This document shows positions 19,075-25,048 of a DNA stretch of 32,000 nucleotides, in pieces (the stretch's first letter is position 1; the number at the start of each line of letters is the position of its first letter). The notes beneath the pieces were generated by a model. That model did not search any database. It was not told the DNA's origin and saw only the letters and a program-made list of their open reading frames with translations. The stretch is from Candidatus Heimdallarchaeota archaeon (GTDB lineage: Archaea; Asgardarchaeota; Heimdallarchaeia; Heimdallarchaeales; Kariarchaeaceae): positions 90,001-122,000 of the forward strand of contig JASBSB010000007.1 of NCBI GenBank assembly GCA_030149205.1. The letters run 5' to 3'. The position numbers and the translations under genes were made by a program.

Positions 19075-20208
19075 ATGACAAAAACTAGCTATTTAACGTC
19101 AGAAAGCGTTACTGAGGGTCACCCAGATAAGGTCGCTGATCAGATCAGTGACGCTATTCTTGATGAGATATTAAAAGAGGACAAGGCAGCCAGAGTTGCT
19201 TGTGAAACCTTTGTAACCACAGGACTTGTTGTTATTGGAGGAGAAATCGCAACAGAGAGTTATGTGAATCTACATCAGGTTGTAAGGGATACTGTTAAAG
19301 AAATTGGTTATGTACACCCAGACATCGGATTCTTCTACAAGGATGTGGCTGTGTTAAATGTTATACATGAACAAAGTCCAGATATCGCACAGGGTGTTAT
19401 CAAGAATTCATCAGAAGAACAGGGAGCTGGAGATCAGGGATTAATGTTTGGATATGCTGTCGATCATACAGATGAGTTAATGCCACTTCCAATCAAGCTT
19501 TCACATGATTTAACAAGAAATCTTGCAAGGCTTAGAAAATCCGGAGAGTTGGATTATTTAAGACCTGATGGAAAAGCCCAGATTGCTATAAGATATAAGG
19601 ACAATGTTCCACAGGAAGCCACAAAAGTTGTGATTGCTACCCAACACACCGAATCAGTGGATCAGACAAAGATTAAGCAAGATCTTACTGAACTTCTCAT
19701 CAAACCACAATTGGGGGAATATTTCACTGATAAGACTGATGTGATTGTAAATGGTACTGGTAAATTTGTAATCGGTGGTCCACATGGTGATGCTGGATTA
19801 ACTGGAAGAAAGATTATTGTAGACACCTATGGAGGAGCAGGTTACCATGGGGGTGGTGCCTTTTCAGGCAAGGATCCTTCAAAAGTGGACAGGTCTGGGT
19901 CATATGTGAGCCGTTATATTGCTAAAAATGTGGTGGCTGCTGGTTTAGCTAAAGAATGTTCTGTTCAGATTTCTTACTCAATAGGAGTAGCAGAACCCAT
20001 TTCATTTGACGTCAAAACTTTTGGAACATCTACTGACTTGTCTGATGAAGAAATCAGAGAGAAAGTTTTGAGAAACATTGACCTTCGCCCTGGTCCCATT
20101 ATAGAGAGGTTTGATCTGAGGAGACCAATTTTTAGACAGGTTTCAAACTATGGACATTTCGGGAGGAATGACTTAGATCTTCCTTGGGAAAAGACAGACT
20201 TATTTTAG
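19075..20208 (+). CDS. metK: S-adenosylmethionine synthetase, bacterial/eukaryotic type
   Basis: [54 protein letters not shown]. Confidence 0.98.
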
Positions 20209-20987: not shown

Positions 20988-22139
20988 ATGGAAAAAGTAG
21001 CTATAATTGGAGTTGGAGTTGAAGGCTTTAGACCTGAAATTCGAGACTTATCTTACAAAGAGATGGTTTATCAGGCAGCTGTTAAGGCCTACTCCGATGC
21101 AGATATAAATCCAAGAGAAGAGGTTGACACCTTTATCTCTTGTGAAGAGGACTTTTCTATGGGTACATCTATAACTGACGAGTACGCTCCTGATCAGTTA
21201 GGTGCAGCTCAGAGAACTGTTCATACAATTACTGGTGATGGTATTCAAGGCATTGTAGCAGCTTATATGCAAATTAAAACAGGTATGTTTGATGTAGCTG
21301 TGGTTGAAGCCCAGAGTCGATCTTCTGATATAAAAACCCATAATCAAATTCAGCATTTAGCATTTGATCCATTATATGCAAGGCAGTTTGATGCAATTTA
21401 CCACTCAGCTGGTGCATTGGAAAAGAGGATGTATACCTCTGAGTTCGGTGTATCTGAAGAGGCAATTGCGAACGTTGTTATAAAAAATCATGAAAATGCC
21501 CTTAGGAACCCAAACGCAGCATATGGTATGAGATTAAAAGAATTTGATGTATTGGAAGCTGAGATGGTGGCAAGCCCACTGAGAGATACAGAGATTTCTT
21601 CATCTGTAGATGGCTCTATAGTTGTGGTCTTAGCTAATGAAAAGGTTGTAAAAGAGAAAGATTCAAATCCAGTATGGATTAAGGGAATTAATTATGCAAC
21701 AAACTCACCAAACTTTGATACCAGAGAATGGAAGAAGGCAAAGTACGCAGAATTGAGCGCAAAAAAGGCGTATCAGATGGCTGGGATCAAAAACCCACAT
21801 GATGAAATAGATGTTTTTGAGGTGGATGATACCTATGCATTTAAGGAATTACAACATCTGGAGGGCCTAGGTCTTTTTGAATATGGAAAGGCTGCGGAAG
21901 CTTTAATGAATGGAGAATTTAGCAATAAAGGAAGTACCCCCGTAAATGTTTCTGGAGGAGTTCTTGGTATGGGAAATGCACATGATGCAAATGGTTTACA
22001 AAGAATATCAGAAATTGTAGAACAACTCAGAGGACATGCCGGTAGAAGGCAGGTCAAAGGAGCTAAGACTGGTCTCGCATTCTCTTGGAGAGGAGTTCCG
22101 ACTACAGCAGGAGCTGTGGCAATTTTGTCAAAGGAGTGA
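20988..22139 (+). CDS. Non-canonical thiolase-fold protein, subunit 1 (no nucleophilic Cys)
   Basis: Thiolase/SCP2-type fold motifs (DGSIVVVLA, PVNVSGG, RQVKGA); TITGDG in place of xxACASG; GNAH in place of GHP. AGGTGA SD supports the start at 20988. Confidence 0.85.
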   Translation: MEKVAIIGVGVEGFRPEIRDLSYKEMVYQAAVKAYSDADINPREEVDTFISCEEDFSMGTSITDEYAPDQLGAAQRTVHTITGDGIQGIVAAYMQIKTGMFDVAVVEAQSRSSDIKTHNQIQHLAFDPLYARQFDAIYHSAGALEKRMYTSEFGVSEEAIANVVIKNHENALRNPNAAYGMRLKEFDVLEAEMVASPLRDTEISSSVDGSIVVVLANEKVVKEKDSNPVWIKGINYATNSPNFDTREWKKAKYAELSAKKAYQMAGIKNPHDEIDVFEVDDTYAFKELQHLEGLGLFEYGKAAEALMNGEFSNKGSTPVNVSGGVLGMGNAHDANGLQRISEIVEQLRGHAGRRQVKGAKTGLAFSWRGVPTTAGAVAILSKE

Positions 22140-22144
22140 ATAAA

Positions 22145-23344
22145 ATGAAAGGAAAGAAAGTAGGAATGGTAAGTGTAGGACTTACAAAATTTATGAGACG
22201 GGCAAAGGAAACTCCTAAAGAATTAGCATATTATTCTGCGAAAATGGCTTTGGATAATGCCGGAATCACAAGAAAAGATGTAGATGGAGTAATCATAGGG
22301 TCTGCGCCTGACGCCTTTGATGGTGTTCATCAAAAGCATGAATATTTGACCGATGGGTCTGGTGGGTTCAATCTGCCAACCATGAGAGGTTATGTTGGAG
22401 GTGGAACCGGGGTTTTCTCACCAATTCAGGGGTGGTACTCAGTTGCTTCAGGTATGAACGATGTTGTTCTTATAACAACTGAGGAGAAAATGTCGACTAT
22501 TCAACCCTCTGCTCAGGCAGGTTTTCTAACAATTTTTGATAATATGATCGAGAGAAACTTAGGTCCGAACCTGGTTTGGATTTTTGCTCTTGAGATGAAA
22601 AGGTATATGGAGAAGCACGGAATTCCAAAAGAACATATAGCATCAGTTTCTGTCAAAAACAAAGGAAATGCTTTGGATCATCCCAGTGCTATGCTTGGGC
22701 AAAAGCTAACAATTGAACAGGTTATGAACTCAGAAGTTCTGGCTGATCCAGTTCATTTGTTAGACATCTCCCCAGTGGCAGATGGAGCAGTCTCATTTGT
22801 TATGATGTCAGAGGATAAAATTAAAGAATTTGGAATTCCACTTGATCAGGTAGCCTGGGTTGACGGTGTTGGTTGGAATGTTGATACAACCATCTGGACC
22901 AATCGTGACCTATACTATCCAAAGTATGTGGAAAAGGCTGCAAAGCAGGCATATAACATGGCAGGTCAAAAAGACCATTCTCCAGAGACTTTAAGAAAAT
23001 GGTTATCCTTTGCTGAACCTTATGATCCGTTCAATTATAAGGAGCTCCATCACTTGGAGGGGTTACAATTGTTCGGAAAGGGAGAAGCACCCCGAGCGGC
23101 TTTTGAGGGTGTCACTGCAAGAGATAGCGATTTTCCTGTAACACCTTCTGGAGGTTTACTTGGTGTTGGAAACCCCATTGCTGCTGCTGCTGGAATGAAG
23201 GCTGCAGAAGTGTATTTACAGCTTACCGGACAGGCAGGAAAGAGACAGATTCCAAAAGATGTAACTCGTGGATTAGCACAGGCTTGGGGAGATCTTATGC
23301 AAGTTGGTACTGTTCTTGTTATGAAAGGAGGTCAGGTGCAATAA
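22145..23344 (+). CDS. Non-canonical thiolase-fold protein, subunit 2 (contains no Cys)
   Basis: SPVADGA, TPSGGLLGVGNP, AGKRQI; YVGGGTG at the catalytic-Cys position; start ATG at 22145. Confidence 0.87.
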   Translation: MKGKKVGMVSVGLTKFMRRAKETPKELAYYSAKMALDNAGITRKDVDGVIIGSAPDAFDGVHQKHEYLTDGSGGFNLPTMRGYVGGGTGVFSPIQGWYSVASGMNDVVLITTEEKMSTIQPSAQAGFLTIFDNMIERNLGPNLVWIFALEMKRYMEKHGIPKEHIASVSVKNKGNALDHPSAMLGQKLTIEQVMNSEVLADPVHLLDISPVADGAVSFVMMSEDKIKEFGIPLDQVAWVDGVGWNVDTTIWTNRDLYYPKYVEKAAKQAYNMAGQKDHSPETLRKWLSFAEPYDPFNYKELHHLEGLQLFGKGEAPRAAFEGVTARDSDFPVTPSGGLLGVGNPIAAAAGMKAAEVYLQLTGQAGKRQIPKDVTRGLAQAWGDLMQVGTVLVMKGGQVQ

Positions 23345-23844
23345 TGGAACTTAGAGGTACAAAACTCAGCAATGATGAATTTCTGAATAAGGTTCTTAGT
23401 GTGACATACTACCCTGAATTGGATTATGCTTGGGCCACAGGAGTTGCAATCACAAAGTTTCTGAATGGTCTCAAAGAGGGTGTCATCTATGGCACCAAAT
23501 GCAATGAATGTTCTCGAGTTGTTTGTCCACCCCGTATGTTTTGTGAGGAATGTCATACCCCTATGAATGAGTATGTGGAACTTCCCCAAACAGGAATTAT
23601 CAATACCTTCTCTTTAGCATACATCAGAACAGATGCAACCAGAAGAGACAAAGCAGAAATTCCAGCAGTAATTGACATTGATGGAACCACAATCAGTCCA
23701 TCTGGTTTCTTACATCTCATTAATGAAGATACACCTCATGACAAGGTAAAGGTCAATGCAAAGGTGAAAGCCGTCTGGAAATCTCCAGAGGAACGTAAGG
23801 GAGATATCACAGATATCAAGTATTTTGATATTATGGAGGACTAA
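23344..23844 (+). CDS. DUF35 Zn-ribbon/OB-fold protein 1
   Basis: GTKCNECSRVVCPPRMFCEEC, then OB fold ending VKAVWK...GDITDIKYF; the ATG overlaps the upstream TAA. Confidence 0.9.
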   Translation: MELRGTKLSNDEFLNKVLSVTYYPELDYAWATGVAITKFLNGLKEGVIYGTKCNECSRVVCPPRMFCEECHTPMNEYVELPQTGIINTFSLAYIRTDATRRDKAEIPAVIDIDGTTISPSGFLHLINEDTPHDKVKVNAKVKAVWKSPEERKGDITDIKYFDIMED

Positions 23845-23846
23845 AC

Positions 23847-24311
23847 ATGTTACCAACAAAGAGAAATGCAAAACACAACAGTGTAAGAGAGGTAGAAGGA
23901 AGCTTTCCGATTCATTTTCATTACACAGCAGGAATTTCAACTGAAAAGTTCTTCCTTGGCTTAAAGGAAAAGAAGATCTTAGGAAACACTTGTGCAACCT
24001 GCAATTTCACATACCTACCCCCAAAAATATTTTGTGAGGATTGTTTCGCAGAATTGGGAAATGATACGTATAAAGAGGTTCCACAAACTGGTATCTTGGA
24101 AAGCTATACAGAGATCTATTATGATTTCAGAGGAGACAAGTTGGAAACACCATACTTTTTGGCACTCATTAAAGTTGATGAGACAGACACAATGTTTTAT
24201 CACAAATTGATAGATACTGAGAACCCTAAAATTGGTATGAAAGTGTCTGCTATTTGGAATGATGATCGAAAGGGCTCTATTCATGATCTAAATGGATTTA
24301 AAGGCATTTAA
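23847..24311 (+). CDS. DUF35 Zn-ribbon/OB-fold protein 2
   Basis: GNTCATCNFTYLPPKIFCEDC; IGMKVSAIW...GSIHDL. Confidence 0.9.
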   Translation: MLPTKRNAKHNSVREVEGSFPIHFHYTAGISTEKFFLGLKEKKILGNTCATCNFTYLPPKIFCEDCFAELGNDTYKEVPQTGILESYTEIYYDFRGDKLETPYFLALIKVDETDTMFYHKLIDTENPKIGMKVSAIWNDDRKGSIHDLNGFKGI

Positions 24312-24673
24312 ATAAATTGCGAGAAATAAGACACAATAAACATTATTATTACAGTTAATGAAATAATAACAAAAACTCCAATTGCAATAAATAAGATTAG
24401 ATTCATTTTGCTGATTCCTGTGATTAATTCATTAATATCATCACCTGAGGTTGTGATTATATTTTTGAAATAGACGAGGGGAGTAATAAAGCTTGCAGCC
24501 AATAAAAATAGACCGATTGATAAAGCAAAATCAGAAAATATGAAACCAGTTTTTAACCCTTCAATTAACAAAACCACTCCAGTCACAACCAGTGAAAATG
24601 AGAGAATAAGTAGTCCTAACATAAAATTCAGAAAAATCCTGTTTTCCTCTTGTGTAAATTCGTATTCAGACAT
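24308..24673 (-). CDS. Small membrane protein, paralog A
   Basis: About 3 hydrophobic segments; EYEFTQEEN and FKNIITTSGDDINELITG motifs shared with its neighbour. Confidence 0.75.
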   Translation of the reverse strand: MSEYEFTQEENRIFLNFMLGLLILSFSLVVTGVVLLIEGLKTGFIFSDFALSIGLFLLAASFITPLVYFKNIITTSGDDINELITGISKMNLILFIAIGVFVIISLTVIIMFIVSYFSQFI

Positions 24674-24682
24674 TAGATCACC

Positions 24683-25048
24683 TCAAAAAATCAAGATAAA
24701 AAAGAACACTCCAATCACTGTAATCACAGCTGAGATGATTAGAAAGGATTTAGTAAAGAGTGATAATCCAGCCATTAATTCTTTCAGATCAGAACCTTCA
24801 GAAATTGCAATCTGTTTGAAATGGTTTGATGGTAAAAATAGAAGGTAAGCAATTGGAAATAAGAGAACAAAAGAAATCGATGCAAACCAATTTCTTTCGA
24901 GGTTAAAAGAACTCTTGGTAAAAGTGATTAGACTGGTGAGTAGTCCTAAAAAGCCAGTAAGAAGTACTAGGATACTCAGAATCATCAATTGATTTCCAAA
25001 TCTCCAAAGAACTTCTGCGTCTTCCTCAGAGAATTCATATGAAGCCAT
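24683..25048 (-). CDS. Small membrane protein, paralog B
   Basis: SYEFSEEDA and FKQIAISEGSDLKELMAG; same 121-aa length as its neighbour. Confidence 0.75.
   Translation of the reverse strand: MASYEFSEEDAEVLWRFGNQLMILSILVLLTGFLGLLTSLITFTKSSFNLERNWFASISFVLLFPIAYLLFLPSNHFKQIAISEGSDLKELMAGLSLFTKSFLIISAVITVIGVFFFILIF

What the first reader, a model, noticed from the sequence alone, without database searches (positions are those of the whole stretch)
20988..24311. Four-gene complex of two catalytically rewired thiolase-fold proteins plus two DUF35 proteins
Seen: a translationally coupled operon. Subunit 2 has no Cys at all and subunit 1 has one (ISCEED), away from the nucleophile position. The CASG motif is replaced by TITGDG/YVGGGTG and GHP by GNAH/GNP, while both share (Y/F)KEL(H/Q)HLEG. 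Classical Cys-acyl thiolase chemistry therefore looks impossible. Known: DUF35 proteins scaffold thiolase-fold enzymes (archaeal thiolase/HMG-CoA synthase complex; the Cys-less Ltp2 aldolase in steroid side-chain degradation). From memory, similar pairs occur in Sulfolobales/Thermoproteales, annotated only as acetyl-CoA acetyltransferase. Inferred: a heteromeric acyl-CoA aldolase/lyase-like enzyme of unknown reaction, perhaps in isoprenoid or branched-lipid catabolism.
Basis: partly seen in the sequence, partly recalled or inferred. Interest (0 to 1): 0.72.

Follow-up and report, generated by a model that had tools for sequence, protein, structure and literature searches.

The report
Cysteine-free thiolase pair with DUF35 partners
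Four tightly packed genes in this Heimdall-group archaeon encode two thiolase-shaped proteins without the thiolase catalytic residues plus two zinc-ribbon helper proteins; the set is uncharacterised, is conserved in hundreds of archaeal and bacterial species, is routinely labelled "acetyl-CoA acetyltransferase", and most likely cuts carbon-carbon bonds in small CoA esters without a cysteine.

Summary
T1 (20988-22139), T2 (22145-23344), D1 (23344-23844) and D2 (23847-24311) form one coupled operon. Against four canonical thiolase paralogues of the same genome and six solved relatives, T2 reads G86 for the nucleophilic Cys, YDPF for HDCF and GNP for GHP. T1 reads T82, DDTY and GNA.

These T2 positions are invariant in 84 homologues. 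T2 is about 63% identical between archaea and bacteria and T1 about 50%. At least 585 species genomes carry a relative. Of 80 loci fetched, 70 hold T1-T2-D-D and 7 are cut by contig ends. Natural T2-D1 and T2-D1-D2 fusions exist.

A T1-T2 heterodimer is predicted confidently (ipSAE 0.92, best control 0.00), though partly by likeness to solved thiolase dimers.

T2 keeps the Tyr that is the catalytic base of the DUF35-bound retro-aldolases Ltp2 and Sal. It lacks both of their acid residues and no hydratase is attached.

Neighbours point to short-chain CoA esters, not isoprenoids: short-chain acyl-CoA dehydrogenase, acetyl-CoA-synthetase-like ligase, methylmalonyl-CoA mutase with MeaB, and a VOC gene inside the operon in Actinomycetota.

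My reading is a cysteine-independent, enolate-forming C-C lyase, most likely an aldolase, with a methylmalonyl-type decarboxylase as the main rival. No characterised orthologue was found. This scan has flagged the same module before on other DNA, in at least 20 genomes.

The parts
20988..22139 (+). T1, thiolase-fold subunit, 383 aa (PRK06066-like). The less conserved partner subunit.
   Evidence: Pfam Thiolase_N/Thiolase_C_1. NF004722 scores 464 bits against a cut-off of 516. The family is about 50% identical across phyla and forms one clade at 100/100 support.
21225..21242 (+). T1 loop TITGDG at the position of the thiolase nucleophile motif; T82 aligns with the Cys.
   Evidence: Column make-up in 118 homologues: T80 117/118, D84 111/118, position 82 variable (T/P/S/G).
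21825..21836 (+). T1 DDTY at the HDCF position; D280 replaces the His/Tyr.
   Evidence: Aligned to HDxF of 4YZO and 7YVY and to YDCY of CtSal 9MYR. D280 is present in 115/118 homologues.
21972..21980 (+). T1 GNA at the GHP position.
   Evidence: The family has H (59), N (50), Y (6) or Q (2) of 118 here.
22145..23344 (+). T2, thiolase-fold subunit, 399 aa (PRK06065). The highly conserved, presumed catalytic subunit.
   Evidence: NF004721 scores 550.5 bits against a cut-off of 455. 62-65% identity to homologues from Thermoplasmatota, Bathyarchaeia, Actinomycetota, Chloroflexota and Deltaproteobacteria. One clade at 100/100 support, with shorter branches than T1.
22394..22411 (+). T2 VGGGTG; G86 sits at the nucleophilic-Cys position.
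   Evidence: Alignments to 7YVY and 6ESQ and to the paralogues. V84, G85, G86, T88 and G89 are 84/84; G87 is 81/84.
23021..23062 (+). T2 YDPF (at the HDCF position) followed by the helix YKELHHLEG.
   Evidence: Y293 aligns with the His of HDxF in five solved relatives. Y293, D294, P295, F296, K299, E300, H302 and H303 are all 84/84. The same position is the catalytic Tyr of Ltp2 (YDHF) and Sal (YDCY) (PMC12329534).
23168..23176 (+). T2 GNP at the GHP position; N343 replaces the His.
   Evidence: 84/84. In CtSal this column holds Gln (GQ) in the HMMER alignment through T1; by the paper's numbering that is Gln352, the counterpart of Ltp2 Tyr344 (PMC12329534).
23285..23293 (+). T2 WGD loop, the lengthened C-terminal active-site loop. 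Its counterpart in T1 is WRG at 22086-22094.
   Evidence: W381, G382 and D383 are 84/84; T1 W367 and R368 are 118/118. Both loops lie in the predicted T1-T2 interface.
23344..23844 (+). D1, DUF35 protein, 166 aa. Zinc ribbon CxxC...CxxC at 23500-23553, followed by an OB fold.
   Evidence: Pfam zf-ChsH2 and OB_ChsH2_C. The four Cys are kept in 39/39 D1 orthologues. D1 is fused to the C-terminus of T2 in 33 of 119 listed homologues.
23847..24311 (+). D2, DUF35 protein, 154 aa. Zinc ribbon at 23991-24044, followed by an OB fold.
   Evidence: Pfam. The closest solved relative is SSO2064 (3IRB), E 1.3e-17. The Cys4 ribbon is kept in 38/39. D2 is fused behind T2-D1 in proteins of about 720-745 aa.

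Best explanation
The four genes encode one complex. A T1-T2 thiolase-type heterodimer forms the core, and each side is clamped by a zinc-ribbon/OB (DUF35) protein: D1 on T2 (shown by natural fusions) and, by inference, D2 on T1.

The complex cannot form an acyl-cysteine intermediate, so it is not a thiolase. T2 is the catalytic subunit. Its remodelled site keeps two hydrogen-bond donors where SCP2-type thiolases have their two histidines: Tyr293 and Asn343. It also keeps the backbone Gly382, so it can still stabilise the enolate of a CoA thioester.

I propose that it binds a short (C3-C5) 3-hydroxyacyl-CoA. Tyr293 takes the proton of the 3-hydroxyl, as in Ltp2 and Sal. The C2-C3 bond breaks to give a small aldehyde or ketone and the enolate of acetyl- or propionyl-CoA. 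An unidentified invariant residue then protonates the enolate; candidates are His302, His303, Asp383 and the Lys299-Glu300 pair. The reaction may also run in the aldol direction.

T1 is mainly a structural partner. Its family-specific invariant residues lie in the dimer interface.

Shown: gene set, motifs, conservation, fusions, neighbours. Predicted: the dimer. Inferred: the catalytic roles, the substrate class and the D2-T1 pairing.
For: Loss of the thiolase residues:
- Both subunits lack them, while four paralogues in the same genome keep C/HDCF/GHP.
- In a DUF35-associated ACAT, His-to-Tyr in HDxF nearly abolishes thiolysis (PMC12960953).

Likeness to the aldolases:
- T2 has Gly at the nucleophile position and YDPF, the same arrangement as CtSal (Gly at the nucleophile position, Tyr302 as base) and TcLtp2 (Tyr294 as base) (PMC12329534; T1-to-9MYR alignment combined with the T1/T2 alignment).

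Selection:
- All T2 site residues are 84/84 invariant and mean column identity is 75%. This is purifying selection on a working site, not decay.
- T2 evolves more slowly than T1.

The four proteins act together:
- 70 of 80 loci hold T1-T2-D-D and 7 more are cut by contig ends.
- Natural T2-D1 fusions (33 of 119) and T2-D1-D2 fusions exist.
- T1+T2 model: ipSAE 0.92, best of 3 controls 0.00. The mark was reached by 58 of 80 solved complexes and 2 of 110 mismatched pairs. The runs agree in at least 94% of contacts and the partner's pLDDT is at least 89. My own alignments were used, so these counts hold only roughly. Thiolase dimers are solved, so the pass partly shows likeness.
- The interface contains T1 54-69 (acidic invariants), T1 R368, and T2 54-67, 74-86 and 382-387.

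Short-chain CoA context:
- ACAD in 22 of 80 loci across 7 taxon groups; ACS-like ligase in 12; MCM in 9, with MeaB; CoA-transferase in 4.
Against: - T2 has neither known acid: Pro295 stands where Sal has Cys304 and Ltp2 has His296, and Asn343 stands where Ltp2 has Tyr344.
- No enoyl-CoA hydratase, 3-hydroxyacyl-CoA dehydrogenase or aldehyde dehydrogenase recurs next to the module. In Ltp2 and Sal the hydratase is fused to the DUF35 domain.
- By sequence and predicted fold T2 is nearer to real archaeal thiolases (7YVY E 1e-47; Foldseek ranks 1-5) than to Ltp2 (rank 26) or Sal (rank 39). The aldolase-like site would therefore be convergent.
- A Tyr/Asn pair would serve any enolate chemistry equally well.
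- T1 also keeps invariant polar residues outside the predicted interface (D280, K286, E287, H290), so it may not be a passive partner.
- No biochemical data exist for any member.
Confidence: 0.42

Rival explanations
1. Biotin-independent decarboxylase of methylmalonyl-, malonyl- or ethylmalonyl-type CoA esters. The Tyr293/Asn343 pair polarises the thioester, CO2 leaves, and the enolate is protonated to give propionyl-, acetyl- or butyryl-CoA.
For: - Methylmalonyl-CoA mutase is in 9 of 80 loci, with its B12 subunit and MeaB beside the module in several. This is seen in Deltaproteobacteria, Bathyarchaeia, another archaeon and Actinomycetota.
- From memory, this layout echoes the E. coli scpA-argK-scpB-scpC operon, in which the decarboxylase sits beside the mutase.
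- A VOC-family gene sits between T1 and T2 in 11 of 22 Actinomycetota loci, and one VOC-T2 fusion exists.
- TbSLP, a Cys-less relative with a YDCF motif, decarboxylates malonyl-CoA slowly and was crystallised with it (PMC12329534; 5AB7).
Against: - Mutase adjacency holds for only about 11% of loci.
- The VOC protein is not a recognisable methylmalonyl-CoA epimerase. It has no NCBIfam epimerase hit, and its best solved relatives are Rv0577 and glyoxalase I, with MCE at only E 0.004.
- This genome has two carboxyltransferases and two mutases, so no pathway gap calls for such an enzyme.
- A four-subunit complex seems elaborate for a simple decarboxylation.
Confidence: 0.18
2. Non-catalytic thiolase-like scaffold, CoA-ester binding protein or regulator, for example a partner of another acyl-CoA enzyme.
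For: - All canonical catalytic residues are missing in both subunits.
- DUF35 proteins are known scaffolds that recruit further enzymes (bioRxiv 10.1101/2024.07.05.601840).
- A canonical thiolase/DUF35 pair lies divergently beside the module in about 7 loci, mostly Bathyarchaeia.
Against: - The replaced active-site positions of T2 are themselves 100% invariant, together with neighbouring polar residues (Y293, N343, D383, H302, H303, K299, E300). This is unusual for a pure scaffold.
- 63% identity across domains of life.
- No constant third partner gene is seen.
Confidence: 0.1
3. It is still a thiolase or Claisen enzyme that works without a covalent intermediate, by direct attack of the CoA thiolate, or that uses a lineage-specific cysteine.
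For: - The gene context (ligase, CoA-transferase, ACAD) would suit a beta-oxidation thiolase.
- 76% of T2 homologues have a Cys at position 333.
Against: - This T2 has no Cys at all and position 333 is Thr.
- No Cys is conserved in either family.
- The H-to-Y change in HDxF alone nearly abolishes thiolysis in a related enzyme (PMC12960953).
- The GHP His is also lost.
Confidence: 0.05

Closest known systems
TcLtp2-ChsH2(DUF35) (PDB 6OK1) and CtSal-CtShy(DUF35) (PDB 9MYR), steroid and bile-acid side-chain retro-aldolases
   Same: - SCP2-thiolase fold without a nucleophilic Cys (Gly in Sal and in T2).
- A Tyr at the first position of the HDCF-equivalent motif (YDHF, YDCY, YDPF).
- A zinc-ribbon/OB DUF35 partner bound to each thiolase-fold subunit.
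   Different: - Those are homodimers with one kind of DUF35, which is fused to a MaoC hydratase. Here there are two different thiolase-fold subunits and two free-standing DUF35 proteins, with no hydratase.
- Their acid residues (Tyr344; Cys304) correspond to Asn343 and Pro295 in T2.
- Their substrates are bulky steroids. The context here is short-chain.
- Sequence and fold rank them below true thiolases.
[quoted passage not shown]
   Same: - These are the closest solved relatives of T2 by sequence (E 1e-47 and 7e-34) and by predicted fold (TM 0.82-0.88).
- The thiolase there is also associated with DUF35.
   Different: - They keep Cys, HDxF and GHP and are true thiolases.
- Their partner is HMG-CoA synthase, not a second thiolase-like subunit.
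NCBIfam NF004721 (PRK06065) and NF004722 (PRK06066), 'thiolase domain-containing protein'
   Same: T2 scores above the equivalog cut-off of NF004721, and T1 matches NF004722 end to end. These are the curated families of the two subunits.
   Different: The families carry no functional name, and T1 falls just under its cut-off (464 against 516 bits).
SSO2064 (PDB 3IRB), a DUF35 protein of Sulfolobus solfataricus, and ST0096 (PDB 4YZO), a thiolase-like protein of S. tokodaii
   Same: - SSO2064 is the best solved relative of D2 (E 1.3e-17) and of D1 (E 1.6e-11).
- ST0096 is the best solved relative of T1 and also lacks the nucleophilic Cys (GSGG).
   Different: - Both are structural-genomics entries without a known function.
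- ST0096 keeps HD and GHP and scores only E 5.5e-30 against T1, so it is not an orthologue.
Ltp3-Ltp4 with the double-DUF35 protein of actinobacterial sterol catabolism
   Same: Two different thiolase-like 'lipid-transfer proteins' together with two DUF35 domains, proposed to act as an aldol-lyase.
   Different: - Not tested here beyond NCBIfam scores. The 'lipid-transfer protein' models score 53-144 bits, below the true-thiolase models at 173-182 bits.
- My literature search for Ltp3/Ltp4 returned only unrelated papers.

Membership tests
Thiolase (acetyl-CoA C-acetyl/acyltransferase, SCP2/archaeal type) | Thiolase alpha-beta-alpha-beta-alpha fold (Thiolase_N plus Thiolase_C_1) | tested here: met
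   Pfam hits for T1 and T2. T2 model TM 0.82-0.88 to 7YVY and 6ESQ.
Thiolase (acetyl-CoA C-acetyl/acyltransferase, SCP2/archaeal type) | Nucleophilic Cys in the CxS motif | tested here: not met
   T2 has G86 (84/84 in the family). T1 has T82 in a variable column. No Cys is conserved in either family.
Thiolase (acetyl-CoA C-acetyl/acyltransferase, SCP2/archaeal type) | His of the HDxF motif and His of GHP (oxyanion hole) | tested here: not met
   T2 reads YDPF and GNP. T1 reads DDTY and GNA.
Ltp2/Sal-type DUF35-bound retro-aldolase | Catalytic Tyr at the first position of the YDxF/YDxY motif, with no nucleophilic Cys | tested here: met
   Met by T2 (Y293, G86; 84/84). Not met by T1 (D280) (PMC12329534).
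Ltp2/Sal-type DUF35-bound retro-aldolase | Catalytic acid: Tyr344 (Ltp2) or the Cys of YDCY (Sal) | tested here: not met
   T2 has N343 and P295 at these positions.
Ltp2/Sal-type DUF35-bound retro-aldolase | DUF35 partner that is part of a MaoC-type hydratase | tested here: not met
   D1 and D2 are free-standing, or are fused to T2. No hydratase recurs in the 80 loci.
Ltp2/Sal-type DUF35-bound retro-aldolase | Closest relatives by sequence or fold are Ltp2 or Sal | tested here: not met
   6OK1 scores E 4.5e-17 and 9MYR E 2.2e-14, against 7YVY at E 1.2e-47. Foldseek ranks are 26 and 39.
NCBIfam NF004721 (PRK06065) / NF004722 (PRK06066) | Score over the curated equivalog cut-off | tested here: met
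   T2 scores 550.5 against a cut-off of 455: met. T1 scores 464.1 against 516: just under, but it aligns full length over 1-382 of 385 model positions.
DUF35 (zf-ChsH2 plus OB_ChsH2_C) | Cys4 rubredoxin-like zinc ribbon followed by an OB fold | tested here: met
   Pfam hits. D2's OB domain is above the gathering score, while D1's is below it at 20.9 against 27.1. CxxC...CxxC is present in both proteins and conserved in 39/39 D1 and 38/39 D2 orthologues.
Archaeal thiolase/HMG-CoA synthase/DUF35 complex | HMG-CoA synthase subunit encoded alongside | tested here: not met
   The operon has no HMGS-like gene. A separate HMGS-like/thiolase-like/DUF35 set lies elsewhere in the genome.

The most novel reading that the evidence does not exclude
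The heterodimer carries two different, both functional, cysteine-free active sites: T1 with Asp280, His/Asn330 and Arg368, and T2 with Tyr293, Asn343 and Asp383. Each site is capped by its own DUF35 protein. Together they would run a two-step conversion that no thiolase-fold enzyme is known to do. One example is hydration of the enoyl-CoA delivered by the neighbouring acyl-CoA dehydrogenase, followed by retro-aldol cleavage. That would be a thiolase- and NAD-independent way to shorten or build short acyl-CoAs in Asgard, Bathyarchaeia, Sulfolobales and many bacteria.
Probability: 0.1. Interest if true: 0.85.

Novelty: new variant of a known kind. Interest (0 to 1): 0.6.

Why it matters
- **Scale of mis-annotation.** Relatives of T2 were confirmed in at least 585 of the 185,579 species genomes scanned. 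They include Asgard archaea, Bathyarchaeia, Sulfolobales, Thermoplasmatota, Actinomycetota and Chloroflexota. The two subunits are labelled acetyl-CoA acetyltransferase or thiolase in these genomes, so metabolic reconstructions (beta-oxidation, mevalonate pathway, archaeal fatty-acid synthesis, counts of 'KT/DUF35 pairs' in Asgard genomes) count two thiolases that cannot be thiolases.
- **Unknown reaction.** About 63% identity between archaeal and bacterial T2 points to a specific, conserved reaction in short-chain CoA-ester metabolism that has not been assigned.
- **Enzymology.** Identifying the reaction would add a third active-site solution to the Cys-less thiolase-fold lyases, after Ltp2 and Sal. 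It could also give a small-substrate C-C bond-forming biocatalyst.

Tried and rejected
- **Literature.** I searched for a characterised orthologue with DUF35/thiolase/archaea, PDB codes, SSO2061-2063/ST0096, thiolase-like aldolase, and DUF35 decarboxylase. None was found. The Sulfolobus fatty-acid-synthase preprint deals with a canonical KT/DUF35 pair. The Desulfotomaculum acetone cluster holds an ordinary thiolase/DUF35 context. The Ltp3/Ltp4 search returned only plant and neuroscience papers.
- **Pathway-gap test in this genome.** Mutases, carboxyltransferases and eight crotonases are all present, so no gap points to a function.
- **VOC as methylmalonyl-CoA epimerase.** Not supported.
- **CoA-transferase subtype.** The neighbours give only weak 3-oxoacid-transferase hits.
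- **Mapping further Sal residues onto T2.** Gln161 and Tyr165 lie before the aligned stretch, so my first guess (E150) could not be verified.
- **Pocket analysis.** I therefore made no pocket-size claim.
- **Expression.** No RNA holder was listed for this stretch, and no reads were laid.
- **Promoter and terminator scans.** Counts were no higher than in shuffled sequence.

Full report
**What is there.** The window is a stretch of a 3.3-Mb, 93.5%-complete genome, and the closest named homologues come from Heimdallarchaeota/Kariarchaeaceae MAGs. Four same-strand ORFs lie at 20988-24311: T1 (383 aa), T2 (399 aa), D1 (166 aa) and D2 (154 aa). They are separated by 5 nt, a one-base TAATG overlap, and 2 nt, with GGAG-type ribosome-binding sites inside the preceding genes. 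T1 and T2 are Thiolase_N/Thiolase_C_1 proteins. D1 and D2 are zf-ChsH2 plus OB_ChsH2_C (DUF35) proteins with intact CxxC...CxxC ribbons. The flanking genes are unrelated: MetE-like, MTHFR-like, MetK and a DinB-like gene upstream; two small membrane proteins, a GCD14-type tRNA methyltransferase and A/V-ATPase subunits downstream. The operon stands alone in this genome.

**The catalytic motifs.** HMMER alignments to six solved relatives agree with a MAFFT alignment against five paralogues from the same genome. The solved relatives are P. furiosus thiolase 7YVY, the M. thermolithotrophicus thiolase 6ESQ, ST0096 4YZO, BbsB 7PXP, zebrafish SCP2-thiolase 6HSJ and CtSal 9MYR. Four paralogues keep Cys / HDCF / GHP. 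T2 reads G86 / YDPF / GNP, and T1 reads T82 / DDTY / GNA. T2 has no Cys at all and T1 has one, C52.

In 84 T2 homologues the following are invariant: V84, G85, G86, T88, G89, Y293-D-P-F296, K299, E300, H302, H303, G342-N-P344 and W381-G-D383. In 118 T1 homologues T80, D84, D280, K286, E287, H290, W367 and R368 are invariant or nearly so, while the nucleophile column and the 'GHP' column (H/N/Y/Q) vary. No Cys column is conserved in either family; the highest frequency is 76% at T2 position 333, which is Thr here. Replacing the HDxF His by Tyr nearly abolishes thiolysis in a DUF35-associated ACAT (PMC12960953). Thiolase chemistry is therefore excluded on three counts.

**Family and distribution.** T2 passes the NCBIfam equivalog NF004721 (PRK06065; 550 bits, cut-off 455). 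T1 matches NF004722 (PRK06066) end to end but just below its cut-off. Both are named only 'thiolase domain-containing protein'.

- T2 homologues are 62-65% identical in Thermoplasmatota, Methanofastidiosia, Bathyarchaeia, Actinomycetota, Chloroflexota, Deltaproteobacteria and Armatimonadota. T1 homologues are about 50% identical.
- In a sample of 201 genomes of the same phylum, 45 carry a T2 over the cut-off. All 7 genomes of the window's own family have it and none of 23 in the sister family, so it is an accessory module, not a core one.
- Sulfolobus acidocaldarius is the one control genome over the cut-off.
- T1 and T2 are each monophyletic (100/100) and are separated from the canonical paralogues by a fully supported branch. 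T2 has much shorter branches. The outgroup was only five paralogues from one genome.

**The four proteins belong together.**

- Of the 80 loci fetched, 70 hold T1-T2-D-D in that order and 7 are cut by a contig end. Of the remaining three, two have genes inserted between T1 and T2, and one has no detectable DUF35 match.
- 33 of the 119 best T2 homologues are T2-D1 fusions. A large bacterial clade has T2-D1-D2 triple fusions of 720-745 aa.
- The T1+T2 complex prediction gave ipSAE 0.92 against a best control of 0.00. The mark was reached by 58 of 80 solved complexes and 2 of 110 mismatched pairs. The runs agree in at least 94% of contacts, and the partner's pLDDT is at least 89. My own alignments were used, so these counts hold only roughly. 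Thiolase homodimers are solved, so the pass shows likeness as much as binding, and it cannot exclude homodimers.
- The predicted interface holds precisely the family-specific invariants. These are T1's acidic stretch at 54-69 and R368, and T2's 54-67 (H62, K64), 74-86 (R81 and the G86 loop) and 382-387 (D383). The opposite charges (WRG in T1, WGD in T2) suggest a heterodimer lock. This last point is my inference.

**What it works like.** In the DUF35-bound retro-aldolases, the Tyr at the first position of YDHF (Ltp2, Tyr294) or YDCY (Sal, Tyr302) is the essential base, and the nucleophile position is Gly in Sal (PMC12329534). T2 shares both features. The acid differs: Ltp2 uses Tyr344 at the GHP position, where T2 has Asn343, and Sal uses the Cys of YDCY, where T2 has Pro295.

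T2 is therefore not a member of either aldolase family. By sequence and predicted fold it is closest to true archaeal thiolases. The monomer model has pLDDT 75, with the site loops poorly defined. What T2 keeps is a pair of hydrogen-bond donors (Tyr, Asn) and the backbone Gly382, arranged to stabilise a thioester enolate. That fits retro-aldol or aldol chemistry best, but also decarboxylation.

**Context.** Clustering all ORFs of the 80 loci gave these recurrent neighbours:

| Neighbour | Loci of 80 | Where |
|---|---|---|
| Short-chain (Bcd/AcrC-like) acyl-CoA dehydrogenase | 22 | seven taxon groups |
| Acetyl-CoA-synthetase-like ligase | 12 | Actinomycetota, Lokiarchaeia-type, Chloroflexota |
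| Methylmalonyl-CoA mutase, with B12 subunit and MeaB beside it in several | 9 | Deltaproteobacteria, Bathyarchaeia, another archaeon, Actinomycetota |
| Divergent family-I CoA-transferase pair | 4 | Chloroflexota |
| Second, canonical thiolase/DUF35 pair, divergently oriented | about 7 | mostly Bathyarchaeia |

- In 11 of 22 Actinomycetota loci a VOC-family gene sits between T1 and T2, and one protein is a VOC-T2 fusion. That VOC is not recognisably a methylmalonyl-CoA epimerase.
- No hydratase, 3-hydroxyacyl-CoA dehydrogenase, aldehyde dehydrogenase or isoprenoid gene recurs.
- The context therefore points to C3-C5 CoA esters. It also keeps a methylmalonyl-type decarboxylase alive as the main rival; from memory, the layout echoes the E. 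coli scpA-argK-scpB operon.
- This genome has mutases, carboxyltransferases and crotonases in plenty, so no pathway gap helps.

**Known or new.** I found no paper that characterises an orthologue. SSO2064 (3IRB), the closest solved relative of D2, and ST0096 (4YZO), a different Cys-less thiolase-like protein, are structures without functions. The Sulfolobus work counts 'KT/DUF35 pairs' in Asgard genomes without separating this type. Earlier notes of this scan describe the same module in at least 20 other genomes and reach the same aldolase-like reading. I re-derived the motifs, conservation and gene set independently. I add the interface mapping, the triple fusions, the VOC insertion and the taxon-resolved neighbour counts.

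**Verdict.** It is a real, strongly conserved, uncharacterised heteromeric thiolase-fold/DUF35 complex that is not a thiolase.

| Reading | Probability |
|---|---|
| Cys-independent aldolase-type C-C lyase on short CoA esters | about 0.4 |
| Decarboxylase | about 0.2 |
| Scaffold or regulator | about 0.1 |
| Residual thiolase | about 0.05 |
| Other enolate chemistry, including a two-site enzyme | the rest |

It is a new variant of a known kind (Cys-less, DUF35-bound thiolase-fold lyases). Interest 0.6.

Noticed in passing
L005:455-3079 (own genome, contig C7:143914-148023; outside the window): A second non-canonical set in the same genome: an HMG-CoA-synthase/KAS-III-like gene, then a thiolase-like gene reading AAEASG (Glu for the nucleophilic Cys), HDIF and GAP (Ala for the GHP His), then a DUF35 gene. 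It resembles a PhlABC/MucABC-type or degenerate mevalonate-type trio.
   Followed up: partly
L018, L032, L034-L038, L040, L052, L063, L064 (e.g. L032:5195-5560): In 11 of 22 Actinomycetota loci a 120-aa VOC/glyoxalase-family gene is inserted between T1 and T2, and one protein (P0252) is a VOC-T2 fusion. The VOC is not recognisably a methylmalonyl-CoA epimerase.
   Followed up: partly
P0244-P0363 (proteins of 710-745 aa found): A large, mainly bacterial clade about 50% identical to T2 carries T2, D1 and D2 fused in one polypeptide (Pfam checked on P0244 and P0257).
   Followed up: partly
window 19075-20208 (+): The S-adenosylmethionine synthetase here is of the bacterial/eukaryotic MetK type (PF00438/PF02772/PF02773). 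From memory, most archaea use the distinct archaeal-type enzyme. It follows MetE-like and MTHFR-like genes.
   Followed up: no
window 24308-24673 (-) and 24683-25048 (-): Two adjacent paralogous 121-aa predicted membrane proteins with no Pfam family. They run convergent to the operon, and the first overlaps the D2 stop by 4 nt.
   Followed up: no
G063, G047, G087, G142 and others (one search match table): Many Asgard genomes hold further adjacent pairs of thiolase-like genes that score 250-330 bits to NF004721, below the cut-off. Other two-thiolase modules therefore exist beside this one.
   Followed up: no
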